Made by a program: the position numbers and the translations under genes. A stretch of DNA of 64,000 bases from the human T2T-CHM13v2.0 reference genome, Homo sapiens, in the NCBI GenBank assembly GCA_009914755.4, contig CP086569.2, positions 29,568,001 to 29,632,000 of the forward strand, in the 5' to 3' direction. A model generated the notes under the pieces. It ran no database searches. It had not been told where the DNA came from and was given only the letters and a program-made list of their open reading frames with translations. Shown here piece after piece: positions 3,401 through 64,000 of the stretch (its first letter is position 1; each line of letters starts with the position of its first letter).

Positions 3401-3580
3401 ATGGGATCGAATACAATGGAATATACTGGAATGAAATGTAATGAACTCGAATGTAATTGACTGGAATGGAATGTACATGAATGGAATGTAATCGAATGGA
3501 AAGTAATCTAATGGAATAAAATCTAATGCAATAAAATCGACTCAGATAGAGTAGAATGTAATGGAATGGAGTGCAGTGCA

Positions 3581-31332: not shown

Positions 31333-34300
31333 ATGGAGTCAAATGGAATGGTCTGGAATGGAATGAACACGAATGTAATGCAATCCAATAGAATGGAATC
31401 GAATGGCATGGAATATAAAGAAATGGAATCGAAGAGAATGGAAACAAATGGAATGGAATTGAATGGAATGGAATTGAATGGAATGGGAACGAATGGAGTG
31501 AAATTGTATGCAGTAGAAGAGAATAGAATGAAATGCAAGCGAAAGGAAAGGAATGGATTGGAATGGAATGGAATTCATTGGAATGGAAGGGAAAGTAGTG
31601 TAATGGACAGGCCTGGAATAAAGTGGAATGCTACGGTCTCGAATGGAATAAAAATGTATGGAATGGAATGCAATGAAACGGAATCGAATGTCATAGAATG
31701 TAATGGAATGCAAAAAAATGGACTCCAAAATCATTGACTGGAAAGGCTGGGTGTCGAAAGGGATTGACTCCAATGGAATGGAATCGAATGGAATGGAAGT
31801 GAATAGAATCGAACTAAATCGAATGGAATGGAATTGATAGGAACGGAATGGAAAGGAATGCAATCATTTGGCATGGAATGGAATCGAATGGCATCGAATG
31901 GAATGGAATGGAATGCAATGGAATGGAATGTATTAGAATGTAATGAACTTTAATGGAATGTACTCGAATGGATTCGACTGGAATGGAATGTTCTGGACGT
32001 GAATGGACTCCAATGGAATGGATTCAAAAGGAATGGAATCTTACGGAATGGAATCTAATGGAATGGAATTAAATGGAAATGAATCAAATTGAATAGCACG
32101 GAATTGAATTGAATGGAATCGAATGCAATGGTATCTAATGAAACGGAAAGGAAAGGAATGGAATGGAATGGAATGGGCTGGAATGGAAAGGAATCGAAAC
32201 GAATGGAATGGAATCGAACTGAAGAGACTGGAATGGAATGCACTTTAATGGAAGGGAGTGTAATGGAAGGTTCTCGACAAAAATGGAATCGAATGGAATG
32301 GAATTGAATGGAACGGAATAGAGTCGAATGGATTTGAATGGAATGGAATGGACTACAGTGAAATGGAATCGAACCACAAGTAATGGACAGGTATAGAATG
32401 GTCTCGAATTGAATGGAATCGTATGGAATGGCATCAAACGGAATGGAATGGACAGCCACGGAATGGAATGCACTCGAATGCAATGGAGTCGAAACTAATG
32501 GACTGGAATAAAATGGACTCGACTGGTACGGACTCCAATGGAATGGAATCGAATGCAAGGGAATCGAACGGAATGGACTCGAAGGGAAAAGACTGCAATG
32601 GAAAGGTCTCGAATGGAATGGAAATTAATGGAATGGAATGGAATCGAATGAAATGGAGTCAAAAGGAATGGAATCGAATGGCAAGAAATCGAATGTAATG
32701 GAATCGCAAGGAATTGATGTGAACGGAACGGAATGGAATGGAATCCAAAGGAATGGAATAGAATGGAATGGAATCGAATGGAAAGGGCTCGAATGGAAAT
32801 CACTCGAATAGAATGCAATTTAATAAAATAGGATCAAATGTAATGGAATGGAATTGAAAGGAATCGAAAGGAAAGGAATGGAGACAGATGGAATGGAATG
32901 GAACAGAGAGCAATGGTATAGAATGGAATGGAATCATCTGGAATGGAATTGAATGGAATGGAATAATATGAAATGGAATGGAATGGAATGGAATGCCCTT
33001 GAATTAAATGGACTGGAATGGAATGGATTCGAATAGAGTGGAATGGAAAGTTTTGAGATAGAATGGAATGGACCCCTTTGGAATGGTCTAGTATGCAATG
33101 CAATCGACTGGCAGGGAATCAAAAGGAATGTAATCGAATGGATTGGACTGGAATGCAATGGACTCGAATAGATTGGAAACGGAATGCAAAGGAATGGAAT
33201 GGAATAGTATGGAATGGAATGGAAAGGAATGGAGTGGAATAGACTAGAGTGGAATGGAATGGACTGGAAAGCAATGGACTGGAATGGAACTTTCTTGAAT
33301 GGACTGGAATCAAACGGAATGGAATGCAATGCAATCAAATGGCATGGAATAAAATAGAATGAAAGAGAATCAAATGGAATTGAATCGAATGGAATCGAAT
33401 GGATTGGAAAGGAATAGAATGGAATGGAATGGAATTGACTGAAATGGAATGGACTAGAATGGAATGGATTCGAATGGAAGGCAAAGGAATGGAATCTATT
33501 GGAATGGACTGTAATGGAATGGAATGGAAGGGATTGGAATGGACTCGAATGGAATGGACTGCAATAGAAAGGATTCGAATGGAATGAAAAAGAATTGAAT
33601 GGAATAGAACAGAATGGAATCAAATCGAATGAAATGGAATGGAATAGAAAGGAATGGAATGAAATGGAATGGAAAGGATTCGAATGGAATGCAATCGAAT
33701 GGAATGGAATCGAACGGAATGGAATAAAATGGAAGAAAACTGGCAAGAAATGGAATCGAAATGAATGGAGTGTTATGGAACGGACTCAAAAGGAATTGAA
33801 TGTAATAGAATGGAGTGGAGTGGACTCGAATATAATGGACTGGAATGGAATGAAATCACATGGAATGGGAACGAATGGAATGGAATGGAAAGGAATGGAA
33901 TCGAATGGAAAGGAATCGAATGGAAGGGAATGAAATTGAATCAACAGGAATGGAAGGGAATAGAATAGACGGTAATGGAATGGACTCGAATAGAATGGAC
34001 ACGAATGCTCAAATTGAATGGACTCGAATGGAATGGAAACGAAAGGAATGTCATCGAATGGAATTGAATCGATTGGAATGAAATCGCATAGAATGGAGTG
34101 GAATCAAATGGAATTGAATCGAAAGGAAAGGAAGCGAATGGACTGAAATGAAATGGAATGGAATTGAATGGAAAGTAGTGCAATGGAATAGAATGGAACG
34201 AAATTTCACGGAATGGAAAGAAACTGAAAGGAATCAAATCAATGGAATATAATCAAATGGAATGGAAAGGAATTGAATGGAGTAGATTGGATTGGATGGG

Positions 34301-34891
34301 ATTGGAATGAAATGTACTGGAAAGGACTCGAATTTCATGAAACGGAATGGAATGAATTGGAACGGAATGGACTCGAATGGAATGGAATGTCATGGAATGG
34401 CATCAAATGGAATGACATCAAATGGAATGGAATCGAATGCAATGGAATGCTCTGGAATGGAATGGAATGCGTTGGAATGGAATGTCCTCTAATGGAATGG
34501 ATTCGAGTGGAATGGAATCGAATATAATGGAGTCGAATGAAATGGAATTGAAAGGAATGGGATCGAATACAATGGAATATACTGGAATGTAATGTAATGA
34601 ACTCGAATGTAATTGACTGGAATGGAATGTACATGAATGGAATGTAATCGAATGGAAAGTAATCCAATGGAATAGAATCTACTGCAATAAAATCGACTCA
34701 GATAGAGTAGAATGTAATGGAATGGAGTGCAGTGCAATGGAATGGAATGGAATGGAATGCAATGGAATGGAATGGAATGGAATGGAATGGAATGGAATGG
34801 AATGGGATGGAATGGTATGGAATGGATAGTAATGGACTGGAGTGAAATGGACTGGAAAAGAATGGACTCAAATTGAAAGGGCTCGAAAGGA
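31333..34891. repeat. HOR unit U10 (3559 bp), A-type
   Basis: Anchor spacing. From about 32.0 kb onward it is near-identical to U16. Confidence 0.8.
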
Positions 34892-37800
34892 ATGGAGTCA
34901 AATGGAATGGTCTAGGAATGGAATGAACACGAATGTAAGGCAATCCAATAGAATGGAATCGAATGGCATGGAATATAAAGAAATGGTATCAAAGAGAATG
35001 GAAACAAATGGAATGGAATTGAATGGAATGGAATTGAATGGAATGGGAACGAATGGAGTGAAATTGTATGCAGTAGAAGAGAATAGAATGGAATGCAAGT
35101 GAAAGGAAAGGAATGGATTGGAATGGAATGGAATTCATTGGAATGGAAGGGAATGTAGTGTAATGGACAGGCCTGGAATAAAGTGGAATGCTACGGTCTC
35201 GAATGGAATAAAAATGTATGGAATGGAATGCAATGAAACGGAATCGAATGTCATAGAATGTAATGGAATGCAAAAAAATGGAATCCAAAATCATTGACTG
35301 GAAAGGCTGGGTGTCGAAAGGAATTGACTCCAATGGAATGGAATCGAATGGAATGGAAGTGAATAGAATCGAACTAAATCGAATGGAATGGAATTGATAG
35401 GAACGGAATGGAAAGGAATGCAATGATGTGGCATGGAATGGAATCGAATGGCATCGAATGGAATGGAATGGAATGCAATGGAATGGAGTGTATTAAAATG
35501 TAATGAACATTAATGGAATGTACTCAAATGGATTCGACTGGAATGGAATGTTCTGGAAGTGAATGGACTCCAATGGAATGGATTCAAAAGGAATGGAATC
35601 GTACGGAATGGAATCTAATGGAATGGAATTAAATGGAAATGAATCAAATTGAATAGCACGGAATTGAATTGAATGGAATCGAATGCAATGGAATCTAATG
35701 AAACGGAAAGGAAAAGAATGGAATGGAATGGAATGGGCTGGAATGGAAAGGAATCGAAACGAATGGAATGGAATCGAACTGAAGAGACTGGAATGGAATG
35801 CACTGGAATGGAAGGGAGTGTAATGGAAGGTTCTCGACAAAAATGGAATCGAATGGAATGGAATTGAATGGAACGGAATAGAGTCGAATGGAATTGAATG
35901 GAATGGAATGGACTAGAGTGAAATGGAATCGAACCACAAGGAATGGACAGGAATAGAATGGTCTCGAATTGAATGGAATCGTATGGAATGGCATCAAACG
36001 GAATGGAATGGACAGCCACGGAATGGAATGCACTCGAATGCAATGGAGTCGAAACTAATGGACTGGAATAGAATGGACTCGACTGGTACGGACTCCAATG
36101 GAATGGAATCGAATGGAAGGGAATCGAACGGAATGGACTCGAAGGGAAAAGACTGCAATGGAAAGGTCTCGAATTGAATGGAAATTAATGGAATGGAATG
36201 GAATCGAATGAAATGGAGTCAAAAGGAATGGAATCGAATGGCAAGAAATCGAATGTAATGGAATCGCAAGGAATTGATGTGAACGGAACGGAATGGAATG
36301 GAATCCAAAGGAATGGAATAGAATGGAATGGAATCGAATGGAAAGGGCTCGAATGGAAATCACTCGAATAGAATGCAATTTAATAAAATAGGATCAAATG
36401 TAATGGAATGGAATGGAAAGGAATCGAAAGGAAAGGAATGGAGACAGATGGAATGGAATGGAACAGAGAGCAATGGTATAGAATGGAATGGAATCATCTG
36501 GAATGGAATTGAATGGAATGGAATAATATGAAATGGAATGGAATGGAATGGAATGCCCTTGAATTAAATGGACTGGAATGGAATGGATTCGAATAGAGTG
36601 GAATGGAAAGTTTTGAGATAGAATGGAATGGACCCCTTTGGAATGGTCTAGTATGCAATGCAATCGACTGGCAGGGAATCAAAAGGAATGTAATCGAATG
36701 GATTGGACTGGAATGCAATGGACTCGAATAGATTGGAAACGGAATGCAAAGGAATGGAATGGAATAGTATGGAATGGAATGGAAAGGAATGGAGTGGAAT
36801 AGACTAGAGTGGAATGGAATGGACTGGAAAGCAATGGACTGGAATGGAACTTTCTTGAATGGACTGGAATCAAACGGAATGGAATGCAATGCAATCAAAT
36901 GGCATGGAATAAAATAGAATGAAAGAGAATCAAATGGAATTGAATCGAATGGAATCGAATGGATTGGAAAGGAATAGAATGGAATGGAATGGAATTGACT
37001 GAAATGGAATGGACTAGAATGGAATGGATTCGAATGGAAGGCAAAGGAATGGAATCTATTGGAATGGACTGTAATGGAATGGAATGGAAGGGATTGGAAT
37101 GGACTCGAATGGAATGGACTGCAATAGAAAGGATTCGAATGGAATGAAAAAGAATTGAATGGAATAGAACAGAATGGAATCAAATCGAATGAAATGGAAT
37201 GGAATAGAAAGGAATGGAATGAAATGGAATGGAAAGGATTCGAATGGAATGCAATCGAATGGAATGGAATCGAACGGAATGGAATAAAATGGAAGAAAAC
37301 TGGCAAGAAATGGAATCGAAATGAATGGAGTGTTATGGAACGGACTCAAAAGGAATTGAATGTAATAGAATGGAGTGGAGTGGACTCGAATATAATGGAC
37401 TGGAATGGAATGAAATCACATGGAATGGGAACGAATGGAATGGAATGGAAAGGAATGGAATCGAATGGAAAGGAATCGAATGGAAGGGAATGAAATTGAA
37501 TCAACAGGAATGGAAGGGAATAGAATAGACGGTAATGGAATGGACTCGAATAGAATGGACACGAATGCTCAAATTGAATGGACTCGAATGGAATGGAAAC
37601 GAAAGGAATGTCATCGAATGGAATTGAATCGATTGGAATGAAATCGCATAGAATGGAGTGGAATCAAATGGAATTGAATCGAAAGGAAAGGAAGCGAATG
37701 GACTGAAATGAAATGGAATGGAATTGAATGGAAAGTAGTGCAATGGAATAGAATGGAACGAAATTTCACGGAATGGAAAGAAACTGAAAGGAATCAAATC

Positions 37801-38451
37801 AATGGAATATAATCAAATGGAATGGAAAGGAATTGAATGGAGTAGATTGGATTGGATGGGATTGGAATGAAATGTACTGGAAAGGACTCGAATTTCATGA
37901 AACGGAATGGAATGAATTTGAACGGAATGGACTCGAATGGAATGGAATGTCATGGAATGGCATCAAATGGAATGACATCAAATGGAATGGAATCGAATGC
38001 AATGGAATGCTCTGGAATGGAATGGAATGCGTTGGAATGGAATGTCCTCTAATGGAATGGATTCGAGTGGAATGGAATCGAATATAATGGAGTCGAATGA
38101 AATGGAATTGAAAGGAATGGGATCGAATACAATGGAATATACTGGAATGTAATGTAATGAACTCGAATGTAATTGACTGGAATGGAATGTACATGAATGG
38201 AATGTAATCGAATGGAAAGTAATCCAATGGAATAGAATCTACTGCAATAAAATCGACTCAGATAGAGTAGAATGTAATGGAATGGAGTGCAGTGCAATGG
38301 AATGGAATGGAATGGAATGCAATGGAATGGAATGGAATGGAATGGAATGGAATGGAATGGAATGGGATGGAATGGTATGGAATGGATGGTAATGGACTGG
38401 AGTGAAATGGACTGGAAAAGAATGGACTCAAATTGAAAGGGCTCGAAAGGA
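34892..38451. repeat. HOR unit U11 (3560 bp), B-type
   Basis: The anchor is altered to ggtctaggaatgg (34911-34923) and atggtatcaaag (34984-34995). Near-identical to U17. Confidence 0.8.
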
Positions 38452-41400
38452 ATGGAGTCAAATGGAATGGTCTAGGAATGGAATGAACACGAATGTAAGG
38501 CAATCCAATAGAATGGAATCGAATGGCATGGAATATAAAGAAATGGTATCAAAGAGAATGGAAACAAATGGAATGGAATTGAATGGAATGGAATTGAATG
38601 GAATGGGAACGAATGGAGTGAAATTGTATGCAGTAGAAGAGAATAGAATGGAATGCAAGTGAAAGGAAAGGAATGGATTGGAATGGAATGGAATTCATTG
38701 GAATGGAAGGGAATGTAGTGTAATGGACAGGCCTGGAATAAAGTGGAATGCTACGGTCTCGAATGGAATAAAAATGTATGGAATGGAATGCAATGAAACG
38801 GAATCGAATGTCATAGAATGTAATGGAATGCAAAAAAATGGAATCCAAAATCATTGACTGGAAAGGCTGGGTGTCGAAAGGAATTGACTCCAATGGAATG
38901 GAATCGAATGGAATGGAAGTGAATAGAATCGAACTAAATCGAATGGAATGGAATTGATAGGAACGGAATGGAAAGGAATGCAATGATGTGGCATGGAATG
39001 GAATCGAATGGCATCGAATGGAATGGAATGGAATGCAATGGAATGGAGTGTATTAAAATGTAATGAACATTAATGGAATGTACTCAAATGGATTCGACTG
39101 GAATGGAATGTTCTGGAAGTGAATGGACTCCAATGGAATGGATTCAAAAGGAATGGAATCGTACGGAATGGAATCTAATGGAATGGAATTAAATGGAAAT
39201 GAATCAAATTGAATAGCACGGAATTGAATTGAATGGAATCGAATGCAATGGAATCTAATGAAACGGAAAGGAAAAGAATGGAATGGAATGGAATGGGCTG
39301 GAATGGAAAGGAATCGAAACGAATGGAATGGAATCGAACTGAAGAGACTGGAATGGAATGCACTGGAATGGAAGGGAGTGTAATGGAAGGTTCTCGACAA
39401 AAATGGAATCGAATGGAATGGAATTGAATGGAACGGAATAGAGTCGAATGGAATTGAATGGAATGGAATGGACTAGAGTGAAATGGAATCGAACCACAAG
39501 GAATGGACAGGAATAGAATGGTCTCGAATTGAATGGAATCGTATGGAATGGCATCAAACGGAATGGAATGGACAGCCACGGAATGGAATGCACTCGAATG
39601 CAATGGAGTCGAAACTAATGGACTGGAATAGAATGGACTCGACTGGTACGGACTCCAATGGAATGGAATCGAATGGAAGGGAATCGAACGGAATGGACTC
39701 GAAGGGAAAAGACTGCAATGGAAAGGTCTCGAATGGAATGGAAATTAATGGAATGGAATGGAATCGAATGAAATGGAGTCAAAAGGAATGGAATCGAATG
39801 GCAAGAAATCGAATGTAATGGAATCGCAAGGAATTGATGTGAACGGAACGGAATGGAATGGAATCCAAAGGAATGGAATAGAATGGAATGGAATCGAATG
39901 GAAAGGACTCGAATGGAAATCACTCGAATAGAATGCAATTTAATAAAATAGGATCAAATGTAATGGAATGGAATGGAAAGGAATCGAAACGAAAGGAATG
40001 GAGACAGATGGAATGGAATGGAACAGAGAGCAATGGTATAGAATGGAATGGAATCATCTGGAATGGAATTGAATGGAATGGAATAATATGAAATGGAATG
40101 GAATGGAATGGAATGCCCTTGAATTAAATCGACTGGAATGGAATGGACTCGAATAGAGTGGAATGGAAAGTGTTGAGATAGAATGGAATGGACTCTTTGG
40201 AATGGTGTAGTATGCAATGCAATCGACTGGCAGGGAATCAAAAGGAATGTAATGGAATGGATTGGACTGGAATGCAATGGACTCGAATAGATTGGAAACG
40301 GAATGCAAAGGAATGGAATGGAATAGTATGGAATGGAATGGAAAGGAATGGAGTGGAATAGACTAGAGTGGAATGGAATGGACTGGAAAGCAATGGACTG
40401 GAATGGAACTTTCTTGAATGGACTGGAATCAAACGGAATGGAATGCAATGCAATCAAATGGCATGGAATAAAATAGAATGAAAGAGAATCAAATGGAATT
40501 GAATCGAATGGAATCGAATGGATTGGAAAGCAATAGAATGGAATGGAATGGAATTGACTGAAATGGAATGGACTAGAATGGAATGGATTCGAATGGAAGG
40601 CAAAGGAATGGAATCTATTGGAATGGACTGTAATGGAATGGAATGGAAGGGATTGGAATGGACTCGAATGGAATGGACTGCAATAGAAAGGATTCGAATG
40701 GAATGAAAAAGAATTGAATGGAATAGAACAGAATGGAATCAAATCGAATGAAATGGAATGGAATAGAAAGGAATGGAATGAAATGGAATGGAAAGGATTC
40801 GAATGGAATGCAATCGAATGGAATGGAATCGAACGGAATGGAATAAAATGGAAGAAAACTGGCAAGAAATGGAATCGAAATGAATGGAGTGTTATGGAAC
40901 GGACTCAAAAGGAATTGAATGTAATAGAATGGAGTGGAGTGGACTCGAATATAATGGACTGGAATGGAATGAAATCACATGGAATGGGAACGAATGGAAT
41001 GGAATGGAAAGGAATGGAATCGAATGGAAAGGAATCGAATGGAAGGGAATGAAATTGAATCAACAGGAATGGAAGGGAATAGAATAGAGGGTAATGGAAT
41101 GGACTCGAATAGAATGGACACGAATGCTCAAATTGAATGGACTCGAATGGAATGGAAACGAAAGGAATGTCATCGAATGGAATTGAATCGATTGGAATGA
41201 AATCGCATAGAATGGAGTGGAATCAAATGGAATTGAATCGAAAGGAAAGGAAGCGAATGGACTGAAATGAAATGGAATGGAATTGAATGGAAAGTAATGC
41301 AATGGAAGAGAATGGAAGGAAATTTCACGGAATGGAATCAAACTGAATGGAATCAAATCAATGGAATATAATCAAATGGAATGGAAAGGAATTGAATGGA

Positions 41401-41945
41401 ATAGATTGGATTGGATGGGATTGGAATGAAATGTACTGGAAAGGACTCGAATTTCATGAAACGGAATGGAATGAATTGGAACGGAATGGTCTCGAATGGA
41501 ATGCAATGTCATGGAATGGCATCAAATGGAATGGCATCAAATGGAATGGAATCGAATGCAATGGAATGCTATGGAATGGAATATAATGGAGTCGAATGAA
41601 ATGGAATTGAAAGGAATGGGTTCGAATACAATGGAATATACTGGAATGTAAGGTAATGAACTCGAATGTAATTGACTGGAATGGAATGTACATTAACGGA
41701 ATGTAATCGAATGGAAAGTAATCCAATGGAATAGAATCTAATGCAATAAAATCGACTCAGATAGAGTAGAATGTAATGGAATGGAGTGCAGTGCAATGGA
41801 ATGGAATGGAATGGAATGCAATGGAATGGAATGGAATGGAATGGAATGGAATGGAATGGGATGGAATGGTATGGAATGGATAGTAATGGACTGGAGTGAA
41901 ATGGACTGGAATGGAATGGACTCAAATTGAAAGGTCTCGAAAGGA
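38452..41945. repeat. HOR unit U12 (3494 bp), B-type with a ~60-bp deletion
   Basis: The deletion joins ggaatggaat|ataatggagtcg at about 41577. The identical deletion is present in U18. Confidence 0.8.
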
Positions 41946-44900
41946 ATGGAGTCAAATGGAATGGTCTGGAATGGAATGAACACGAATGTAATGCAATCCA
42001 ATAGAATGGAATCGAATGGCATGGAATATAAAGAAATGGAATCGAAGAGAATGGAAACAAATGGAATGGAATTGAATGGAATGGAATTGAATGGAATGGG
42101 AACGAATGGAGTGAAATTGTATGCAGTAGAAGAGAATAGAATGGAATGCAAGCGAAAGGAAAGGAATGGATTGGAATGGAATGGAATTCATTGGAATGGA
42201 AGGGAATGTAGTGTAATGGACAGGCCTGGAATAAAGTGGAATGCTACGGTCTCGAATGGAATAAAAATGTATGGAATGGAATGCAATGAAACGGAATCGA
42301 ATGTCATAGAATGTAATGGAATGCAAAAAAATGGACTCCAAAATCATTGACTGGAAAGGCTGGGTGTCGAAAGGAATTGACTCCAATGGAATGGAATCGA
42401 ATGGAATGGAAGTGAATAGAATCGAACTAAATCGAATGGAATGGAATTGATAGGAACAGAATGGAAAGGAATGCAATGATTTGGCATGGAATGGAATCGA
42501 ATGGCATCGAATGGAATGGAATGGAATGCAATGGAATGGAATGTATTAGAATGTAATGAACTTTAATGGAATGTACTCGAATGGATTCGACTGGAATGGA
42601 ATGTTCTGGAAGTGAATGGACTCCAATGGAATGGATTCAAAAGGAATGGAATCTTACGGAATGGAATCTAATGGAATGGAATTAAATGGAAATGAATCAA
42701 ATTGAATAGCACGGAATTGAATTGAATGGAATCGAATGCAATGGTATCTAATGAAACGGAAAGGAAAGGAATGGAATGGAATGGAATGTGCTGGAATGGA
42801 AAGGAATCGAAACGAATGGAATGGAATCGAACTGAAGAGACTGGAATGGAATGCACTGGAATGGAAGGGAGTGTAATGGAAGGTTCTCGACAAAAATGGA
42901 ATCGAATGGAATGGAATTGAATGGAACGGAATAGAGTCGAATGGAATTGAATGGAATGGAATGGACTAGAGTGAAATGGAATCGAACCACAAGGAATGGA
43001 CAGGAATAGAATGGTCTCGAATTGAATGGAATCGTATGGAATGGCATCAAACGGAATGGAATGGACAGCCACGGAATGGAATGCACTCGAATGCAATGGA
43101 GTCGAAACTAATGGACTGGAATAGAATGGACTCGACTGGTACGGACTGCAATGGAATGGAATCGAATGGAATGGAATCGAACGGAATGGACTCGAAGGGA
43201 AAAGACTGCAATGGAAAGGTCTCGAATGGAATGGAAATTAATGGAATGGAATGGAATCGAATGAAATGGAGTCAAAAGGAATGGAATCGAATGGCAAGAA
43301 ATCGAATGTAATGGAATCGCAAGGAATTGATGTGAAGGGAACGGAATGGAATGGAATCCAAAGGAATGGAATAGAATGGAATGGAATCGAATGGAAAGGA
43401 CTCGAATGGAAATCACTCGAATAGAATGCAATTTAATAAAATAGGATCAAATGTAATGGAATTGAATGGAAAGGAATCGAAACGAAAGGAATGGAGACAG
43501 ATGGAATGGAATGGAACAGAGAGCAATGGTATAGAATGGAATGGAATCATCTGGAATGGAATTGAATGGAATGGAATAATATGAAATGGAATGGAATGGA
43601 ATGGAATGCCCTTGAATTAAATGGACTGGAATGGAATGGACTCGAATAGAGTGGAATGGAAAGTGTTGAGATAGAATGGAATGGACTCTTTGGAATGGTG
43701 TAGTATGCAATGCAATCGACTGGCAGGGAATCAAAAGGAATGTAATGGAATGGATTGGACTGGAATGCAATGGACTCGAATAGATTGGAAACGGAATGCA
43801 AAGGAATGGAATGGAATAGTATGGAATGGAATGGAAAGGAATGGAGTGGAATAGACTAGAGTGGAATGGAATGGACTGGAAAGCAATGGACTGGAATGGA
43901 ACTTTCTTGAATGGACTGGAATCAAACGGAATGGAATGCAATGCAATCAAATGGCATGGAATAAAATAGAATGAAAGAGAATCTAATGGAATTGAATCGA
44001 ATGGAATCGAATGGATTGGAAAGGAATAGAATGGAATGGAATGGAATTGACTCAAATGGAATGGACTAGAATGGAATGGATTCGAATGGAAGGCAAAGGA
44101 ATGGAATCTATTGGAATGGACTGTAATGGAATGGAATGGAAGGGATTGGAATGGACTCGAATGGAATGGACTGCAATAGAAAGGATTCGAATGGAATGAA
44201 AAAGAATTGAATGGAATAGAACAGAATGGAATCAAATCGAATGAAATGGAATGGAATAGAAAGGAATGGAATGAAATGGAATGGAAAGGATTCGAATGGA
44301 ATGCAGTCGAATGGAATGGAATTGAACGGAATGGAATAAAATGGAAGCAAACTGGCAAGAAATGGAATCGAAATGAATGGAGTGTTATGGAACGGACTCA
44401 AAAGGAATTGAATGTAATAGAATGGAGTGGAGTGGACTCGAATATAATGGACTGGAATGGAATGAAATCACATGGAATGGGAACGAATGGAATGGAATGG
44501 AAAGGAATGGAATCGAATGGAAAGGAATCGAATGGAAGGGAATGAAATTGAATCAACAGGAATGGAAGGGAATAGAATAGACGGTAATGGAATGGACTCG
44601 AATAGAATGGACACGAATGCTCAAATTGAATGGACTCGAATGGAATGGAAACGAAAGGAATGTCATCGAATGGAATTGAATCGATTGGAATGAAATCGCA
44701 TAGAATGGAGTGGAATCAAATGGAATTGAATCGAAAGGAAAGGAAGCGAATGGACTGAAATGAAATGGAATGGAATTGAATGGAAAGTAATGCAATGGAA
44801 GAGAATGGAAGGAAATTTCACGGAATGGAATCAAACTGAATGGAATCAAATCATTGGAATATAATCAAATGGAATGGAAAGGAATTGAATGGAATAGATT

Positions 44901-52576: not shown

Positions 52577-55500
52577 ATGGAGTCAAATGGAATGGTCTGG
52601 AATGGAATGAACACGAATGTAATGCAATCCAATAGAATGGAATCGAATGGCATGGAATATAAAGAAATGGAATCGAAGAGAATGGAAACAAATGGAATGG
52701 AATTGAATGGAATGGAATTGAATGGAATGGGAACGAATGCAGTGAAATTGTATGCAGTAGAAGAGAATAGAATGGAATGCAAGCGAAAGGAAAGGAATGG
52801 ATTGGAATGGAATGGAATTCATTGGAATGGAAGGGAATGTAGTGTAATGGACAGGCCTGGAATAAAGTGGAATGCTACGGTCTCGAATGGAATAAAAATG
52901 TATGGAATGGAATGCAATGAAACGGAATCGAATGTCATAGAATGTAATGGAATGCAAAAAAATGGAATCCAAAATCATTGACTGGAAAGGCTGGGTGTCG
53001 AAAGGGATTGACTCCAATGGAATGGAATCGAATGGAATGGAAGTGAATAGAATCGAACTAAATCGAATGGAATGGAATTGATAGGAACGGAATGGAAAGG
53101 AATGCAATCATTTGGCATGGAATGGAATCGAATGGCATCGAATGGAATGGAATGGAATGCAATGGAATGGAATGTATTAGAATGTAATGAACTTTAATGG
53201 AATGTACTCGAATGGATTCGACTGGAATGGAATGTTCTGGACGTGAATGGACTCCAATGGAATGGATTCAAAAGGAATGGAATCTTACGGAATGGAATCT
53301 AATGGAATGGAATTAAATGGAAATGAATCAAATTGAATAGCACGGAATTGAATTGAATGGAATCGAATGCAATGGTATCTAATGAAACGGAAAGGAAAGG
53401 AATGGAATGGAATGGAATGGGCTGGAATGGAAAGGAATCGAAACGAATGGAATGGAATCGAACTGAAGAGACTGGAATGGAATGCACTTTAATGGAAGGG
53501 AGTGTAATGGAAGGTTCTCGACAAAAATGGAATCGAATGGAATGGAATTGAATGGAACGGAATAGAGTCGAATGGATTTGAATGGAATGGAATGGACTAC
53601 AGTGAAATGGAATCGAACCACAAGTAATGGACAGGTATAGAATGGTCTCGAATTGAATGGAATCGTATGGAATGGCATCAAACGGAATGGAATGGACAGC
53701 CACGGAATGGAATGCACTCGAATGCAATGGAGTCGAAACTAATGGACTGGAATAGAATGGACTCGACTGGTACGGACTCCAATGGAATGGAATCGAATGC
53801 AAGGGAATCGAACGGAATGGACTCGAAGGGAAAAGACTGCAATGGAAAGGTCTCGAATGGAATGGAAATTAATGGAATGGAATGGAATCGAATGAAATGG
53901 AGTCAAAAGGAATGGAATCGAATGGCAAGAAATCGAATGTAATGGAATCGCAAGGAATTGATGTGAACGGAACGGAATGGAATGGAATCCAAAGGAATGG
54001 AATAGAATGGAATGGAATCGAATGGAAAGGGCTCGAATGGAAATCACTCGAATAGAATGCAATTTAATAAAATAGGATCAAATGTAATGGAATGGAATTG
54101 AAAGGAATCGAAAGGAAAGGAATGGAGACAGATGGAATGGAATGGAACAGAGAGCAATGGTATAGAATGGAATGGAATCATCTGGAATGGAATTGAATGG
54201 AATGGAATAATATGAAATGGAATGGAATGGAATGGAATGCCCTTGAATTAAATGGACTGGAATGGAATGGATTCGAATAGAGTGGAATGGAAAGTTTTGA
54301 GATAGAATGGAATGGACCCCTTTGGAATGGTCTAGTATGCAATGCAATCGACTGGCAGGGAATCAAAAGGAATGTAATCGAATGGATTGGACTGGAATGC
54401 AATGGACTCGAATAGATTGGAAACGGAATGCAAAGGAATGGAATGGAATAGTATGGAATGGAATGGAAAGGAATGGAGTGGAATAGACTAGAGTGGAATG
54501 GAATGGACTGGAAAGCAATGGACTGGAATGGAACTTTCTTGAATGGACTGGAATCAAACGGAATGGAATGCAATGCAATCAAATGGCATGGAATAAAATA
54601 GAATGAAAGAGAATCAAATGGAATTGAATCGAATGGAATCGAATGGATTGGAAAGGAATAGAATGGAATGGAATGGAATTGACTGAAATGGAATGGACTA
54701 GAATGGAATGGATTCGAATGGAAGGCAAAGGAATGGAATCTATTGGAATGGACTGTAATGGAATGGAATGGAAGGGATTGGAATGGACTCGAATGGAATG
54801 GACTGCAATAGAAAGGATTCGAATGGAATGAAAAAGAATTGAATGGAATAGAACAGAATGGAATCAAATCGAATGAAATGGAATGGAATAGAAAGGAATG
54901 GAATGAAATGGAATGGAAAGGATTCGAATGGAATGCAATCGAATGGAATGGAATCGAACGGAATGGAATAAAATGGAAGAAAACTGGCAAGAAATGGAAT
55001 CGAAATGAATGGAGTGTTATGGAACGGACTCAAAAGGAATTGAATGTAATAGAATGGAGTGGAGTGGACTCGAATATAATGGACTGGAATGGAATGAAAT
55101 CACATGGAATGGGAACGAATGGAATGGAATGGAAAGGAATGGAATCGAATGGAAAGGAATCGAATGGAAGGGAATGAAATTGAATCAACAGGAATGGAAG
55201 GGAATAGAATAGACGGTAATGGAATGGACTCGAATAGAATGGACACGAATGCTCAAATTGAATGGACTCGAATGGAATGGAAACGAAAGGAATGTCATCG
55301 AATGGAATTGAATCGATTGGAATGAAATCGCATAGAATGGAGTGGAATCAAATGGAATTGAATCGAAAGGAAAGGAAGCGAATGGACTGAAATGAAATGG
55401 AATGGAATTGAATGGAAAGTAGTGCAATGGAATAGAATGGAACGAAATTTCACGGAATGGAAAGAAACTGAAAGGAATCAAATCAATGGAATATAATCAA

Positions 55501-56135
55501 ATGGAATGGAAAGGAATTGAATGGAGTAGATTGGATTGGATGGGATTGGAATGAAATGTACTGGAAAGGACTCGAATTTCATGAAACGGAATGGAATGAA
55601 TTGGAACGGAATGGACTCGAATGGAATGGAATGTCATGGAATGGCATCAAATGGAATGACATCAAATGGAATGGAATCGAATGCAATGGAATGCTCTGGA
55701 ATGGAATGGAATGCGTTGGAATGGAATGTCCTCTAATGGAATGGATTCGAGTGGAATGGAATCGAATATAATGGAGTCGAATGAAATGGAATTGAAAGGA
55801 ATGGGATCGAATACAATGGAATATACTGGAATGTAATGTAATGAACTCGAATGTAATTGACTGGAATGGAATGTACATGAATGGAATGTAATCGAATGGA
55901 AAGTAATCCAATGGAATAGAATCTACTGCAATAAAATCGACTCAGATAGAGTAGAATGTAATGGAATGGAGTGCAGTGCAATGGAATGGAATGGAATGGA
56001 ATGCAATGGAATGGAATGGAATGGAATGGAATGGAATGGAATGGAATGGGATGGAATGGTATGGAATGGATAGTAATGGACTGGAGTGAAATGGACTGGA
56101 AAAGAATGGACTCAAATTGAAAGGGCTCGAAAGGA
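52577..56135. repeat. HOR unit U16 (3559 bp), A-type
   Basis: Its first ~500 bp differ from U10 by about 1% and carry the B-type MILDSIFL variant. The remainder is near-identical to U10. Confidence 0.8.
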
Positions 56136-59100
56136 ATGGAGTCAAATGGAATGGTCTAGGAATGGAATGAACACGAATGTAAGGCAATCCAATAGAATGG
56201 AATCGAATGGCATGGAATATAAAGAAATGGTATCAAAGAGAATGGAAACAAATGGAATGGAATTGAATGGAATGGAATTGAATGGAATGGGAACGAATGG
56301 AGTGAAATTGTATGCAGTAGAAGAGAATAGAATGGAATGCAAGTGAAAGGAAAGGAATGGATTGGAATGGAATGGAATTCATTGGAATGGAAGGGAATGT
56401 AGTGTAATGGACAGGCCTGGAATAAAGTGGAATGCTACGGTCTCGAATGGAATAAAAATGTATGGAATGGAATGCAATGAAACGGAATCGAATGTCATAG
56501 AATGTAATGGAATGCAAAAAAATGGAATCCAAAATCATTGACTGGAAAGGCTGGGTGTCGAAAGGAATTGACTCCAATGGAATGGAATCGAATGGAATGG
56601 AAGTGAATAGAATCGAACTAAATCGAATGGAATGGAATTGATAGGAACGGAATGGAAAGGAATGCAATGATGTGGCATGGAATGGAATCGAATGGCATCG
56701 AATGGAATGGAATGGAATGCAATGGAATGGAGTGTATTAAAATGTAATGAACATTAATGGAATGTACTCAAATGGATTCGACTGGAATGGAATGTTCTGG
56801 AAGTGAATGGACTCCAATGGAATGGATTCAAAAGGAATGGAATCGTACGGAATGGAATCTAATGGAATGGAATTAAATGGAAATGAATCAAATTGAATAG
56901 CACGGAATTGAATTGAATGGAATCGAATGCAATGGAATCTAATGAAACGGAAAGGAAAAGAATGGAATGGAATGGAATGGGCTGGAATGGAAAGGAATCG
57001 AAACGAATGGAATGGAATCGAACTGAAGAGACTGGAATGGAATGCACTGGAATGGAAGGGAGTGTAATGGAAGGTTCTCGACAAAAATGGAATCGAATGG
57101 AATGGAATTGAATGGAACGGAATAGAGTCGAATGGAATTGAATGGAATGGAATGGACTAGAGTGAAATGGAATCGAACCACAAGGAATGGACAGGAATAG
57201 AATGGTCTCGAATTGAATGGAATCGTATGGAATGGCATCAAACGGAATGGAATGGACAGCCACGGAATGGAATGCACTCGAATGCAATGGAGTCGAAACT
57301 AATGGACTGGAATAGAATGGACTCGACTGGTACGGACTCCAATGGAATGGAATCGAATGGAAGGGAATCGAACGGAATGGACTCGAAGGGAAAAGACTGC
57401 AATGGAAAGGTCTCGAATTGAATGGAAATTAATGGAATGGAATGGAATCGAATGAAATGGAGTCAAAAGGAATGGAATCGAATGGCAAGAAATCGAATGT
57501 AATGGAATCGCAAGGAATTGATGTGAACGGAACGGAATGGAATGGAATCCAAAGGAATGGAATAGAATGGAATGGAATCGAATGGAAAGGGCTCGAATGG
57601 AAATCACTCGAATAGAATGCAATTTAATAAAATAGGATCAAATGTAATGGAATGGAATGGAAAGGAATCGAAAGGAAAGGAATGGAGACAGATGGAATGG
57701 AATGGAACAGAGAGCAATGGTATAGAATGGAATGGAATCATCTGGAATGGAATTGAATGGAATGGAATAATATGAAATGGAATGGAATGGAATGGAATGC
57801 CCTTGAATTAAATGGACTGGAATGGAATGGATTCGAATAGAGTGGAATGGAAAGTTTTGAGATAGAATGGAATGGACCCCTTTGGAATGGTCTAGTATGC
57901 AATGCAATCGACTGGCAGGGAATCAAAAGGAATGTAATCGAATGGATTGGACTGGAATGCAATGGACTCGAATAGATTGGAAACGGAATGCAAAGGAATG
58001 GAATGGAATAGTATGGAATGGAATGGAAAGGAATGGAGTGGAATAGACTAGAGTGGAATGGAATGGACTGGAAAGCAATGGACTGGAATGGAACTTTCTT
58101 GAATGGACTGGAATCAAACGGAATGGAATGCAATGCAATCAAATGGCATGGAATAAAATAGAATGAAAGAGAATCAAATGGAATTGAATCGAATGGAATC
58201 GAATGGATTGGAAAGGAATAGAATGGAATGGAATGGAATTGACTGAAATGGAATGGACTAGAATGGAATGGATTCGAATGGAAGGCAAAGGAATGGAATC
58301 TATTGGAATGGACTGTAATGGAATGGAATGGAAGGGATTGGAATGGACTCGAATGGAATGGACTGCAATAGAAAGGATTCGAATGGAATGAAAAAGAATT
58401 GAATGGAATAGAACAGAATGGAATCAAATCGAATGAAATGGAATGGAATAGAAAGGAATGGAATGAAATAGAATGGAAAGGATTCGAATGGAATGCAATC
58501 GAATGGAATGGAATCGAACGGAATGGAATAAAATGGAAGAAAACTGGCAAGAAATGGAATCGAAATGAATGGAGTGTTATGGAACGGACTCAAAAGGAAT
58601 TGAATGTAATAGAATGGAGTGGAGTGGACTCGAATATAATGGACTGGAATGGAATGAAATCACATGGAATGGGAACGAATGGAATGGAATGGAAAGGAAT
58701 GGAATCGAATGGAAAGGAATCGAATGGAAGGGAATGAAATTGAATCAACAGGAATGGAAGGGAATAGAATAGACGGTAATGGAATGGACTCGAATAGAAT
58801 GGACACGAATGCTCAAATTAAATGGACTCGAATGGAATGGAAACGAAAGGAATGTCATCGAATGGAATTGAATCGATTGGAATGAAATCGCATAGAATGG
58901 AGTGGAATCAAATGGAATTGAATCGAAAGGAAAGGAAGCGAATGGACTGAAATGAAATGGAATGGAATTGAATGGAAAGTAGTGCAATGGAATAGAATGG
59001 AACGAAATTTCACGGAATGGAAAGAAACTGAAAGGAATCAAATCAATGGAATATAATCAAATGGAATGGAAAGGAATTGAATGGAGTAGATTGGATTGGA

Positions 59101-59695
59101 TGGGATTGGAATGAAATGTACTGGAAAGGACTCGAATTTCATGAAACGGAATGGAATGAATTGGAACGGAATGGACTCGAATGGAATGGAATGTCATGGA
59201 ATGGCATCAAATGGAATGACATCAAATGGAATGGAATCGAATGCAATGGAATGCTCTGGAATGGAATGGAATGCGTTGGAATGGAATGTCCTCTAATGGA
59301 ATGGATTCGAGTGGAATGGAATCGAATATAATGGAGTCGAATGAAATGGAATTGAAAGGAATGGGATCGAATACAATGGAATATACTGGAATGTAATGTA
59401 ATGAACTCGAATGTAATTGACTGGAATGGAATGTACATGAATGGAATGTAATCGAATGGAAAGTAATCCAATGGAATAGAATCTACTGCAATAAAATCGA
59501 CTCAGATAGAGTAGAATGTAATGGAATGGAGTGCAGTGCAATGGAATGGAATGGAATGGAATGCAATGGAATGGAATGGAATGGAATGGAATGGAATGGA
59601 ATGGAATGGGATGGAATGGTATGGAATGGATGGTAATGGACTGGAGTGAAATGGACTGGAAAAGAATGGACTCAAATTGAAAGGGCTCGAAAGGA
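56136..59695. repeat. HOR unit U17 (3560 bp), B-type
   Basis: Near-identical to U11, with one substitution seen across ~3.5 kb in the ORF-track comparison. Confidence 0.8.
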
Positions 59696-62600
59696 ATGGA
59701 GTCAAATGGAATGGTCTAGGAATGGAATGAACACGAATGTAAGGCAATCCAATAGAATGGAATCGAATGGCATGGAATATAAAGAAATGGTATCAAAGAG
59801 AATGGAAACAAATGGAATGGAATTGAATGGAATGGAATTGAATGGAATGGGAACGAATGGAGTGAAATTGTATGCAGTAGAAGAGAATAGAATGGAATGC
59901 AAGTGAAAGGAAAGGAATGGATTGGAATTTAATGGAATTCATTGGAATGGAAGGGAATGTAGTGTAATGGACAGGCCTGGAATAAAGTGGAATGCTACGG
60001 TCTCGAATGGAATAAAAATGTATGGAATGGAATGCAATGAAACGGAATCGAATGTCATAGAATGTAATGGAATGCAAAAAAATGGAATCCAAAATCATTG
60101 ACTGGAAAGGCTGGGTGTCGAAAGGAATTGACTCCAATGGAATGGAATCGAATGGAATGGAAGTGAATAGAATCGAACTAAATCGAATGGAATGGAATTG
60201 ATAGGAACGGAATGGAAAGGAATGCAATGATGTGGCATGGAATGGAATCGAATGGCATCGAATGGAATGGAATGGAATGCAATGGAATGGAGTGTATTAA
60301 AATGTAATGAACATTAATGGAATGTACTCAAATGGATTCGACTGGAATGGAATGTTCTGGAAGTGAATGGACTCCAATGGAATGGATTCAAAAGGAATGG
60401 AATCGTACGGAATGGAATCTAATGGAATGGAATTAAATGGAAATGAATCAAATTGAATAGCACGGAATTGAATTGAATGGAATCGAATGCAATGGAATCT
60501 AATGAAACGGAAAGGAAAAGAATGGAATGGAATGGAATGGGCTGGAATGGAAAGGAATCGAAACGAATGGAATGGAATCGAACTGAAGAGACTGGAATGG
60601 AATGCACTGGAATGGAAGGGAGTGTAATGGAAGGTTCTCGACAAAAATGGAATCGAATGGAATGGAATTGAATGGAACGGAATAGAGTCGAATGGAATTG
60701 AATGGAATGGAATGGACTAGAGTGAAATGGAATCGAACCACAAGGAATGGACAGGAATAGAATGGTCTCGAATTGAATGGAATCGTATGGAATGGCATCA
60801 AACGGAATGGAATGGACAGCCACGGAATGGAATGCACTCGAATGCAATGGAGTCGAAACTAATGGACTGGAATAGAATGGACTCGACTGGTACGGACTCC
60901 AATGGAATGGAATCGAATGGAAGGGAATCGAACGGAATGGACTCGAAGGGAAAAGACTGCAATGGAAAGGTCTCGAATGGAATGGAAATTAATGGAATGG
61001 AATGGAATCGAATGAAATGGAGTCAAAAGGAATGGAATCGAATGGCAAGAAATCGAATGTAATGGAATCGCAAGGAATTGATGTGAACGGAACGGAATGG
61101 AATGGAATCCAAAGGAATGGAATAGAATGGAATGGAATCGAATGGAAAGGACTCGAATGGAAATCACTCGAATAGAATGCAATTTAATAAAATAGGATCA
61201 AATGTAATGGAATGGAATGGAAAGGAATCGAAACGAAAGGAATGGAGACAGATGGAATGGAATGGAACAGAGAGCAATGGTATAGAATGGAATGGAATCA
61301 TCTGGAATGGAATTGAATGGAATGGAATAATATGAAATGGAATGGAATGGAATGGAATGCCCTTGAATTAAATCGACTGGAATGGAATGGACTCGAATAG
61401 AGTGGAATGGAAAGTGTTGAGATAGAATGGAATGGACTCTTTGGAATGGTGTAGTATGCAATGCAATCGACTGGCAGGGAATCAAAAGGAATGTAATGGA
61501 ATGGATTGGACTGGAATGCAATGGACTCGAATAGATTGGAAACGGAATGCAAAGGAATGGAATGGAATAGTATGGAATGGAATGGAAAGGAATGGAGTGG
61601 AATAGACTAGAGTGGAATGGAATGGACTGGAAAGCAATGGACTGGAATGGAACTTTCTTGAATGGACTGGAATCAAACGGAATGGAATGCAATGCAATCA
61701 AATGGCATGGAATAAAATAGAATGAAAGAGAATCAAATGGAATTGAATCGAATGGAATCGAATGGATTGGAAAGCAATAGAATGGAATGGAATGGAATTG
61801 ACTGAAATGGAATGGACTAGAATGGAATGGATTCGAATGGAAGGCAAAGGAATGGAATCTATTGGAATGGACTGTAATGGAATGGAATGGAAGGGATTGG
61901 AATGGACTCGAATGGAATGGACTGCAATAGAAAGGATTCGAATGGAATGAAAAAGAATTGAATGGAATAGAACAGAATGGAATCAAATCGAATGAAATGG
62001 AATGGAATAGAAAGGAATGGAATGAAATGGAATGGAAAGGATTCGAATGGAATGCAATCGAATGGAATGGAATCGAACGGAATGGAATAAAATGGAAGAA
62101 AACTGGCAAGAAATGGAATCGAAATGAATGGAGTGTTATGGAACGGACTCAAAAGGAATTGAATGTAATAGAATGGAGTGGAGTGGACTCGAATATAATG
62201 GACTGGAATGGAATGAAATCACATGGAATGGGAACGAATGGAATGGAATGGAAAGGAATGGAATCGAATGGAAAGGAATCGAATGGAAGGGAATGAAATT
62301 GAATCAACAGGAATGGAAGGGAATAGAATAGAGGGTAATGGAATGGACTCGAATAGAATGGACACGAATGCTCAAATTGAATGGACTCGAATGGAATGGA
62401 AACGAAAGGAATGTCATCGAATGGAATTGAATCGATTGGAATGAAATCGCATAGAATGGAGTGGAATCAAATGGAATTGAATCGAAAGGAAAGGAAGCGA
62501 ATGGACTGAAATGAAATGGAATGGAATTGAATGGAAAGTAATGCAATGGAAGAGAATGGAAGGAAATTTCACGGAATGGAATCAAACTGAATGGAATCAA

Positions 62601-63189
62601 ATCAATGGAATATAATCAAATGGAATGGAAAGGAATTGAATGGAATAGATTGGATTGGATGGGATTGGAATGAAATGTACTGGAAAGGACTCGAATTTCA
62701 CGAAACGGAATGGAATGAATTGGAACGGAATGGTCTCGAATGGAATGCAATGTCATGGAATGGCATCAAATGGAATGGCATCAAATGGAATGGAATCGAA
62801 TGCAATGGAATGCTATGGAATGGAATATAATGGAGTCGAATGAAATGGAATTGAAAGGAATGGGTTCGAATACAATGGAATATACTGGAATGTAAGGTAA
62901 TGAACTCGAATGTAATTGACTGGAATGGAATGTACATTAACGGAATGTAATCGAATGGAAAGTAATCCAATGGAATAGAATCTAATGCAATAAAATCGAC
63001 TCAGATAGAGTAGAATGTAATGGAATGGAGTGCAGTGCAATGGAATGGAATGGAATGGAATGCAATGGAATGGAATGGAATGGAATGGAATGGAATGGAA
63101 TGGGATGGAATGGTATGGAATGGATAGTAATGGACTGGAGTGAAATGGACTGGAATGGAATGGACTCAAATTGAAAGGTCTCGAAAGGA
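59696..63189. repeat. HOR unit U18 (3494 bp), B-type with the ~60-bp deletion
   Basis: Near-identical to U12 and carries the same deletion, at about 62821. Confidence 0.8.
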
Positions 63190-64000
63190 ATGGAGTCAAA
63201 TGGAATGGTCTGGAATGGAATGAACACGAATGTAATGCAATCCAATAGAATGGAATCGAATGGCATGGAATATAAAGAAATGGAATCGAAGAGAATGGAA
63301 ACAAATGGAATGGAATTGAATGGAATGGAATTGAATGGAATGGGAACGAATGGAGTGAAATTGTATGCAGTAGAAGAGAATAGAATGGAATGCAAGCGAA
63401 AGGAAAGGAATGGATTGGAATGGAATGGAATTCATTGGAATGGAAGGGAATGTAGTGTAATGGACAGGCCTGGAATAAAGTGGAATGCTACGGTCTCGAA
63501 TGGAATAAAAATGTATGGAATGGAATGCAATGAAACGGAATCGAATGTCATAGAATGTAATGGAATGCAAAAAAATGGACTCCAAAATCATTGACTGGAA
63601 AGGCTGGGTGTCGAAAGGAATTGACTCCAATGGAATGGAATCGAATGGAATGGAAGTGAATAGAATCGCACTAAATCGAATGGAATGGAATTGATAGGAA
63701 CAGAATGGAAAGGAATGCAATGATTTGGCATGGAATGGAATCGAATGGCATCGAATGGAATGGAATGGAATGCAATGGAATGGAATGTATTAGAATGTAA
63801 TGAACTTTAATGGAATGTACTCGAATGGATTCGACTGGAATGGAATGTTCTGGAAGTGAATGGACTCCAATGGAATGGATTCAAAAGGAATGGAATCTTA
63901 CGGAATGGAATCTAATGGAATGGAATTAAATGGAAATGAATCAAATTGAATAGCACGGAATTGAATTGAATGGAATCGAATGCAATGGTATCTAATGAAA
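63190..64000. repeat. partial HOR unit U19 (first 811 bp), C-type
   Basis: Anchor at 63190. FCSYQ variant as in U9 and U13. Confidence 0.8.

What the first reader, a model, noticed from the sequence alone, without database searches (positions are those of the whole stretch)
31333..64000. Exact 21,244-bp (six-HOR-unit) offset duplication at >99.9% identity
Anchors at 31333, 34892, 38452 and 41946 each recur exactly 21,244 bp later (52577, 56136, 59696, 63190). Exact equality means there is no net indel across more than 10 kb. U11/U17, U12/U18 and U13/U19 give identical ORF-track peptides apart from isolated single-residue differences. The private ~60-bp deletion (about 41577 and 62821) is present in both copies, as is the unusual stop-free 303-aa frame (39954-40865 and 61198-62109). 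Identity falls to about 99% in the first ~0.6 kb (31.3-32.0 kb against 52.6-53.2 kb), which places a breakpoint there. This is a very recent segmental amplification inside the satellite, a super-HOR of six units.
Basis: seen in the sequence. Interest (0 to 1): 0.65.

Follow-up and report, generated by a model that had tools for sequence, protein, structure and literature searches.

The report
Recent six-unit duplication inside DYZ1 satellite
Inside an array of the human Y-chromosome satellite DYZ1, a stretch of at least 11 kb recurs exactly 21,244 bp (six repeat units) downstream at 99.93% identity; this is a real and recent duplication, but it is the ordinary way such satellite arrays grow.

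Summary
Window 31333-42756 matches 52577-64000 without gaps at an offset of exactly 21,244 bp, with 12 mismatches and no indels. Other unit pairs differ by 1.1-2.4% and carry 1-10 indels each. The 60-bp deletion is shared and private to the two copies.

Three corrections:
- The left edge of near-identity lies between 31724 and 32333. To its right, identity is 99.93% (8 sites, 7 events, in 11,033 bp).
- The 303-aa frame is not unusual. It also occurs at 43447-44358, and it is a stop-free artefact of ATTCC pentamers.
- Only two copies are visible. There is no copy at -21,244 bp, so a "super-HOR" is not shown.

The sequence is DYZ1/HSat3A6. It has 3.5-kb units, one HaeIII site per unit, 38.7% GC and 1 CpG per 35 bp, and published DYZ1 primers match collinearly.

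The best explanation is unequal sister-chromatid exchange with a six-unit register shift. The junction lies in the hybrid unit at 52577-56135. This exchange sits on top of older exchanges at one-unit and two-unit offsets. At the pedigree-based Yq12 mutation rate it is roughly 800 generations old.

Recent tandem duplications in Yq12 are already documented, so interest is low.

The parts
31724..42756 (+). Copy 1: the visible part of the near-identical tract. It is inferred to continue to about 52967, a full 21,244-bp block.
   Evidence: 8 mismatched sites (7 events) and no indels against 52968-64000.
52968..64000 (+). Copy 2: the near-identical tract, cut off by the end of the window.
   Evidence: Ungapped offset of 21,244 bp at 99.93% identity.
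31724..32333 (+). Interval holding the left edge of near-identity, in copy 1 coordinates.
   Evidence: The last difference at a polymorphism shared with other units is at 31723. The first derived allele shared only by the two copies is at 32333 (alignment column 1001).
52968..53577 (+). Inferred exchange junction inside the hybrid unit of copy 2.
   Evidence: Left of 52968 the unit carries alleles of other unit types (G at 52775, A at 52967). Right of 53577 it carries the private alleles of the unit at 31333.
52577..56135 (+). Hybrid junction unit (my U16). Its first ~400-1000 bp come from another unit type and the rest is a copy of unit 31333-34891.
41549..41608 (+). Site of the 60-bp (12-pentamer) deletion in unit 38452-41945. 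The junction is at about 41578/41579.
   Evidence: The multiple alignment shows the gap only in this unit and in its copy. The junction 30-mer occurs only at 41564 and 62808.
62793..62852 (+). The same 60-bp deletion in the copy unit 59696-63189. The junction is at about 62822/62823.
34892..38451 (+). Older recombinant unit (my U11), copied along with the block to 56136-59695. Columns 0-1282 are identical to the next unit. Columns 1284-3031 are identical to the unit at 24236, and apart from column 1523 also to the unit at 31333.
24236..27779 (+). Close relative (my U8) of the unit at 31333 and of its copy, 0.23% and 0.25% diverged. It marks an earlier exchange at a two-unit offset.

Best explanation
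The window lies inside a DYZ1 (HSat3A6) array of the human Y long-arm heterochromatin. A single unequal exchange between misaligned sister chromatids, six 3.55-kb units out of register, produced a head-to-tail duplication of a 21,244-bp block. Yq12 has no homologue to pair with, which is why the exchange is placed between sister chromatids.

The exchange point lies in the unit at 52577-56135, between 52968 and 53577. That unit is a hybrid. Its start belongs to the unit that originally followed the block, and the rest is a copy of the unit at 31333.

Since the event, the two copies have gained 7 private substitution events and no indels.

Shown here: the exact offset, the near-identity, the position of the edge, the shared private markers, and membership of DYZ1. 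Inferred: the exchange mechanism, that the copy runs the full 21.2 kb (to about 74.2-74.8 kb, outside the window), and the age.
For: **Offset and identity.** The offset is exactly 21,244 bp with 12 mismatches and no indels. The three full unit pairs differ by 0.08-0.14%, against a 1.1-2.4% background.

**Edge of near-identity.** Identity steps from background to near-identity at 31724-32333.

**Hybrid unit.** At 52775 and 52967 the copy-2 unit carries alleles found in other units. From column 1001 onwards it shares derived alleles found only in the unit at 31333.

**Shared markers that predate the event.** These are the 60-bp deletion and the recombinant unit at 34892/56136.

**Nature of the differences.** All 7 post-edge difference events are substitutions. 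In each, one copy keeps the window-wide consensus and the other carries a private allele (2 in copy 1, 5 in copy 2). That is what mutation after duplication would give.

**DYZ1 identity.**
- There is one HaeIII site per unit, giving 3.49-3.56-kb fragments, with GC 38.7% and 1 CpG per 35.5 bp. Hallast et al. describe the same features.
- Published DYZ1 primers C-F match exactly in 15-17 units. Primers A and B match with at most one edit. The matches are in collinear order.

**Literature.** T2T-Y reports recent iterative tandem duplications and smaller expansions in Yq12. It attributes them to unequal exchange, and found sister-chromatid exchanges in about 15% of Strand-seq libraries.
Against: - The far end of the duplication lies outside the window, so a full-length tandem copy is not shown.
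- A long non-reciprocal transfer would look identical within the window.
- No reads are available to exclude an assembly error.
- The edge rests on only two shared-polymorphism sites (31531, 31723), plus the dense differences left of 31250.
Confidence: 0.7

Rival explanations
1. The block is one period of a true multi-copy super-repeat. The same six-unit block would have been amplified iteratively to three or more copies, which continue to the right of the window.
For: T2T-Y reports iterative duplications in Yq12. The second copy runs to the window end at full identity, so further copies cannot be excluded.
Against: There is no copy one period to the left: 10076 vs 31333 is 1.79% diverged, and all other offset-6 pairs are at 1.13-2.11%. 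Only two copies are observed.
Confidence: 0.15
2. A long-tract non-reciprocal transfer overwrote three or more resident units with a copy of the units at 31.7-42.8 kb. This could be interlocus gene conversion or break-induced replication with template switching. The array length would not change by six units.
For: Pedigree data suggest that 17-29% of new Yq12 variants come from interlocus gene conversion. The pattern inside the window would be the same.
Against: - The tract is at least 11 kb with no interruption. From general knowledge, this is far longer than typical conversion tracts.
- None of the 7 later differences matches another unit in the window.
- Whole-unit gains and losses are the structural changes seen directly in pedigrees, for DYZ2.
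Confidence: 0.1
3. An assembly artefact: a false duplication of one real block during assembly of a highly repetitive array.
For: Satellite arrays are the hardest regions to assemble. Population Y assemblies report flagged issues in heterochromatin.
Against: - The copies differ at 7 substitution events and have no homopolymer or length differences, which would be the usual long-read error type.
- The second copy begins with a distinct hybrid unit rather than a repeat of the same junction.
Confidence: 0.05

Closest known systems
DYZ1 / HSat3A6 satellite of human Yq12
   Same: - Units of about 3.55 kb built from GGAAT/ATTCC pentamers, with a single HaeIII site per unit.
- 38.7% GC and 1 CpG per 35 bp.
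- Units mostly 98% or more identical.
- Published DYZ1 primers match in collinear order.
   Different: Nothing differs at the family level. The window is a typical stretch, with length variants of 3,494-3,560 bp and one truncated 2,812-bp unit.
Recent tandem duplications and expansions in Yq12 reported for T2T-Y (Rhie et al. 2023, Extended Data Fig. 8)
   Same: Near-identical blocks arranged head to tail inside DYZ1/DYZ2 arrays, attributed to unequal exchange.
   Different: Those highlighted are much larger, up to 5 Mb and spanning several arrays. This one is 21 kb and lies inside a single array. I found no individual description of it in the papers I read.
Alpha-satellite higher-order repeats and layered centromere expansions
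   Same: Identity between copies one period apart is far higher than identity between neighbouring units, and local homogenisation is by unequal exchange.
   Different: A higher-order repeat is defined by many consecutive periods. Only two copies are seen here, and the period is absent to the left.

Membership tests
DYZ1 / HSat3A6 | Tandem unit of about 3.5-3.6 kb, released as a single HaeIII fragment | tested here: met
   There are 19 GGCC sites, one per unit. Fragments are 3,493-3,560 bp, plus one of 2,811 bp. Hallast et al. report a modal fragment of 3,569 bp, and PMC3925983 reports a 3,564-bp unit.
DYZ1 / HSat3A6 | Built from the pentamer TTCCA/GGAAT and its derivatives | tested here: met
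   The five rotations of GGAAT make up 33% of all 5-mers. Self-identity peaks at every multiple of 5 bp.
DYZ1 / HSat3A6 | About 38% GC and about 1 CpG per 35 bp | tested here: met
   GC is 38.7% and there is 1 CpG per 35.5 bp, against 38% and 1 per 35 bp in Hallast et al..
DYZ1 / HSat3A6 | Sequence match to characterised DYZ1 clones | tested here: met
   Primers DYZ1 C, D, E and F from PMC3925983 Table 5 match exactly in 15-17 units. Primers A and B match with at most one edit in 18 and 14 units. Their order is as expected relative to the HaeIII site, in the opposite orientation to the window + strand. No full reference unit was available to align.
DYZ1 / HSat3A6 | Location on the human Y long arm (male-specific) | not testable with these tools
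   No human genome collection is available. The indirect evidence is that the same satellite turns up at 97-99% identity as a contaminant in metagenome contigs, one of which is labelled as a human gut metagenome.
Tandem duplication by unequal sister-chromatid exchange | Two head-to-tail copies, in register, at an integer number of units | tested here: met
   The offset of 21,244 bp is the sum of six consecutive unit lengths, and there is no indel over 11.4 kb.
Tandem duplication by unequal sister-chromatid exchange | A hybrid unit at the junction between the copies | tested here: met
   The unit at 52577 carries other-type alleles up to 52967. From 53577 onwards it carries the private alleles of the unit at 31333.
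Tandem duplication by unequal sister-chromatid exchange | The near-identical tract is as long as the period (21.2 kb) | not testable with these tools
   The second copy is cut off at 64000. The predicted end is at about 74.2-74.8 kb.
Higher-order repeat ("super-HOR") | Three or more consecutive periods with identity between periods well above identity within a period | tested here: not met
   To the left, every offset-6 pair is at 1.13-2.11%. To the right, the sequence is not in the window. Only two copies are seen.

The most novel reading that the evidence does not exclude
The 21.2-kb block is the visible start of a new, actively amplifying six-unit periodicity in this DYZ1 array, with three or more copies continuing beyond 64000. 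It would be young enough (about 10-50 thousand years at the pedigree Yq12 mutation rate) to be specific to one Y haplogroup. That would give a dated, lineage-marked example of a higher-order layer emerging in HSat3.
Probability: 0.12. Interest if true: 0.35.

Novelty: already known. Interest (0 to 1): 0.15.

Why it matters
It is a clean, base-resolved example of how satellite arrays turn over. Three nested unequal-exchange events, at offsets of one, two and six units, can be ordered from shared derived alleles, and two of the hybrid junction units are visible.

Combined with the pedigree mutation rate for Yq12, such blocks could serve as dated structural markers of Y lineages. Both the phenomenon and its mechanism are already established for Yq12 and for satellites in general, so this adds an instance and no new principle.

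Tried and rejected
**Coding potential.** I rejected it for the 303-aa frame. The translation is IPFHS-like pentamer text, and the frame recurs in every unit at 270 aa, or 303 aa in three units.

**Chance or uniform conservation.** I rejected this. Every other offset-6 pair is at background divergence.

**The copy at 52577 deriving from the unit at 24236 instead of the one at 31333.** I rejected this. Two derived substitutions (columns 1001 and 1523) and a 15-bp length variant are shared only by 31333 and 52577.

**Deletion junction in other samples.** I looked for the private 60-bp deletion junction in metagenome and genome contigs, to see whether other males carry it. There were no hits. Such contigs are few and short, so this says little.

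**Long metagenome contig for comparison.** I tried the contig BNJT01001888.1 (loci L004/L005) as an independent DYZ1 array. It has 40-60 single-base gaps per unit pair, so it is too error-laden to use.

**Classical Y1.1/Y1.2 primers.** I recalled these from memory, and they match nearly every unit. I could not find them in the paper library. I therefore rely instead on the primers printed in PMC3925983.
Full report
**What the window is**

The 64-kb window is strongly strand-asymmetric: A 40%, G 30%, T 21%, C 8%. GC skew is a constant +0.54 to +0.61 throughout. Self-identity peaks at every multiple of 5 bp and then at 3,554 and 21,244 bp.

A 400-bp probe finds 19 unit starts: 177, 3731, 7264, 10076, 13599, 17158, 20692, 24236, 27780, 31333, 34892, 38452, 41946, 45499, 49053, 52577, 56136, 59696 and 63190. 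Unit lengths are 3,494-3,560 bp, with one unit of 2,812 bp. I number these U1-U19.

The features match DYZ1/HSat3A6:
- There is exactly one HaeIII site per unit, GC is 38.7%, and there is one CpG per 35.5 bp. The five rotations of GGAAT make up a third of all 5-mers.
- Hallast et al. describe DYZ1/HSat3A6 in the same terms: about 3.5 kb, pentameric, 38% GC, 1 CpG per 35 bp and a modal HaeIII fragment of 3,569 bp. The T2T-Y paper agrees: HSat3, about 3.6 kb, most units over 98% identical.
- Primers published for the 3,564-bp DYZ1 unit (PMC3925983, Table 5) match once per unit. Four match exactly and two with at most one edit. They lie in the expected order relative to the HaeIII site and in the opposite orientation to the window + strand.

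I therefore treat the window as a stretch of a DYZ1 array. Its chromosomal location cannot be tested here.

**Checking the observation**

At an ungapped offset of 21,244 bp, 31333-42756 against 52577-64000 shows 12 mismatches in 11,424 bp and no indel. The mismatches are at 31496, 31531, 31594, 31723, 32511, 37226, 37576, 37919, 38685, 38686, 41457 and 42425. Six consecutive unit lengths (3559+3560+3494+3553+3554+3524) sum to 21,244.

Global alignments of all 153 unit pairs give the following:

| Comparison | Substitution divergence | Gap events |
|---|---|---|
| U10/U16 | 0.14% | 0 |
| U11/U17 | 0.08% | 0 |
| U12/U18 | 0.09% | 0 |
| Typical other pairs | 1.1-2.4% | 1-10 |

The partial pair U13/U19 has one mismatch in 811 bp. 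This is far beyond chance: at 1.5% divergence about 165 differences would be expected where 8 are seen.

**Where the near-identity starts**

A gapped alignment of 27780-33000 against 49053-54244 shows background mismatch density (about one per 60-70 bp, plus indels) up to 31249. It then shows four more differences at 31496-31723, and after that a single difference at 32511.

Two of those four (31531 and 31723) are polymorphisms shared with other units. At 31531, U10 carries the allele of U7/U8. At 31723, U16 carries the allele of U11/U12. The first derived allele found only in U10 and U16 is at 32333/53577.

The edge therefore lies in 31724-32333, which is 52968-53577 in the second copy. To its right there are 8 differing sites (7 events) in 11,033 bp, or 99.93% identity.

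- The 60-bp deletion is real. It removes exactly 12 pentamers, is flanked by GGAATG microhomology, and is found only in U12 and U18. Its junction 30-mer occurs only at 41564 and 62808.
- The 303-aa frame is on the minus strand at the stated positions. It also occurs in U13 (43447-44358), and most units have a homologous 270-aa frame. Its translation is IPFHS-like text, as expected from ATTCC repeats, which contain no stop codon in that reading. It is neither a gene nor a distinguishing mark.

**What the differences between the copies look like**

All 7 events to the right of the edge are substitutions: 4 transitions, 2 transversions and one GG-to-TT tandem change. In every case one copy keeps the allele of all other units in the window and the other has a private allele. 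Two of the private alleles are in copy 1 and five in copy 2.

That is the pattern expected from point mutation after the duplication. It is not what conversion from nearby units would give, nor typical long-read assembly error, which mostly affects homopolymer lengths.

**Age (inference)**

- With the pedigree estimate for Yq12 of 3.86e-7 per bp per generation (Porubsky et al. 2025), 7/(11,033 x 2 x 3.86e-7) gives about 820 generations. The Poisson range is roughly 330-1,700 generations, or about 10-50 thousand years.
- With a euchromatic Y rate of about 3e-8 per generation (my own knowledge, not checked here), the figure would be about ten times older.

**A layered history**

The block was already a patchwork before it was copied.

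- **U8 and U10.** U8 (24236) differs from U10 at 9 places and from U16 at 10. U10 and U16 share two derived substitutions and a 15-bp length variant that U8 lacks, so U10 and U16 are each other's closest relatives. U7 and U9 are 0.62% apart and share a 1-kb identical stretch. Together these point to an older exchange at a two-unit offset.
- **U11 as a recombinant.** U11 (34892) is identical to U12 over alignment columns 0-1282. From column 1284 it is nearly identical to U8/U10, while differing from U12 at 35 places. The order U10, U11 (U12-left plus U10-right), U12 is what a one-unit unequal exchange produces. Because U17 is the same hybrid, that event predates the six-unit duplication.

**Mechanism**

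The most likely cause is unequal sister-chromatid exchange six units out of register. It would give ...U15, [start of the unit that followed U15 + remainder of U10], U11', U12', ...

U16 fits the predicted hybrid unit. Its first 300 columns are closest to U5/U9/U13/U14, and the rest is closest to U10. The model predicts that near-identity continues for one full period, to about 74.2-74.8 kb, which is outside the window.

The T2T-Y paper attributes the recent tandem duplications of Yq12 to unequal exchange and saw sister-chromatid exchanges there in about 15% of Strand-seq libraries. Pedigrees show about one whole-unit structural change per Y transmission, in DYZ2.

**Rivals**

- **Iterated super-repeat.** This is possible only to the right of the window. 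No copy exists one period to the left (U4/U10 1.79%), and all other offset-6 pairs are at 1.13-2.11%.
- **Long-tract conversion or break-induced replication.** This would look the same inside the window. A tract of at least 11 kb is long for conversion.
- **Assembly artefact.** This is unlikely given the substitution-only private differences and the distinct hybrid junction, but it cannot be excluded without reads.

**Related sequences elsewhere**

- The deletion-junction 30-mer has no exact match in the metagenome or prokaryote-genome collections.
- A general DYZ1 23-mer finds 33 metagenome loci and 6 contigs filed under bacterial genomes. Many are 97-99% identical to units of the window, and the rest match at lower identity. 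These are best read as human male DNA contamination.
- They are too short, or in the case of the long-read contig L004 too error-laden, to say anything about the 21-kb period.

**Verdict**

The interpretation as a recent duplication stands, and "super-HOR" is an overstatement. The feature is an ordinary product of satellite turnover in a region where such events are already documented at many scales.

Noticed in passing
window 34892-38451 (copy at 56136-59695): This unit is a clean recombinant. Its first ~1,283 bp are identical to the following unit (38452). The next ~1,750 bp are identical to the unit at 24236 and one substitution away from the unit at 31333. It looks like the junction unit of an older one-unit unequal exchange.
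   Followed up: partly
window 20692-34891: There are traces of an older duplication at a two-unit offset (about 7.09 kb). Units 24236 and 31333 differ by 0.23%. Units 20692 and 27780 differ by 0.62% and share a 1-kb identical stretch.
   Followed up: partly
window 7264-10075: A truncated 2,812-bp unit. It has a 38-bp deletion near 9932 and a 704-bp deletion near 10045 relative to its neighbours. Neither length is a multiple of 5, unlike almost all other length variants in the window.
   Followed up: partly
whole window: Self-identity at offsets of 15 bp (0.684) and 30 bp (0.664) is higher than at 5, 10, 20 or 25 bp (about 0.637). This suggests a three-pentamer sub-period. Most length variants between units are also 15 bp or other multiples of 5.
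   Followed up: no
L034-L039 (e.g. BMRF01000076.1 Actinomadura cremea JCM 3308; BMTN01000077.1 Streptomyces kurssanovii JCM 4388; BNBB01000077.1 Streptosporangium violaceochromogenes JCM 3281): Contigs filed under bacterial species-representative genomes are 98-99% identical to units of this satellite. This is almost certainly human male DNA contamination of those assemblies.
   Followed up: partly
window 17891: There is an extra EcoRI site, private to the unit at 17158. It would split that unit's 3.5-kb EcoRI fragment into 495 and 3,039 bp.
   Followed up: no
window 38685-38686 vs 59929-59930: The only multi-base difference between the two copies is an adjacent GG-to-TT change in copy 2. It is probably a single tandem-base mutation.
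   Followed up: no
whole window: Base composition is extremely strand-biased (C only 8.4% on the + strand) and the skew is constant. All units therefore lie in one orientation, with no inversion in the 64 kb.
   Followed up: no
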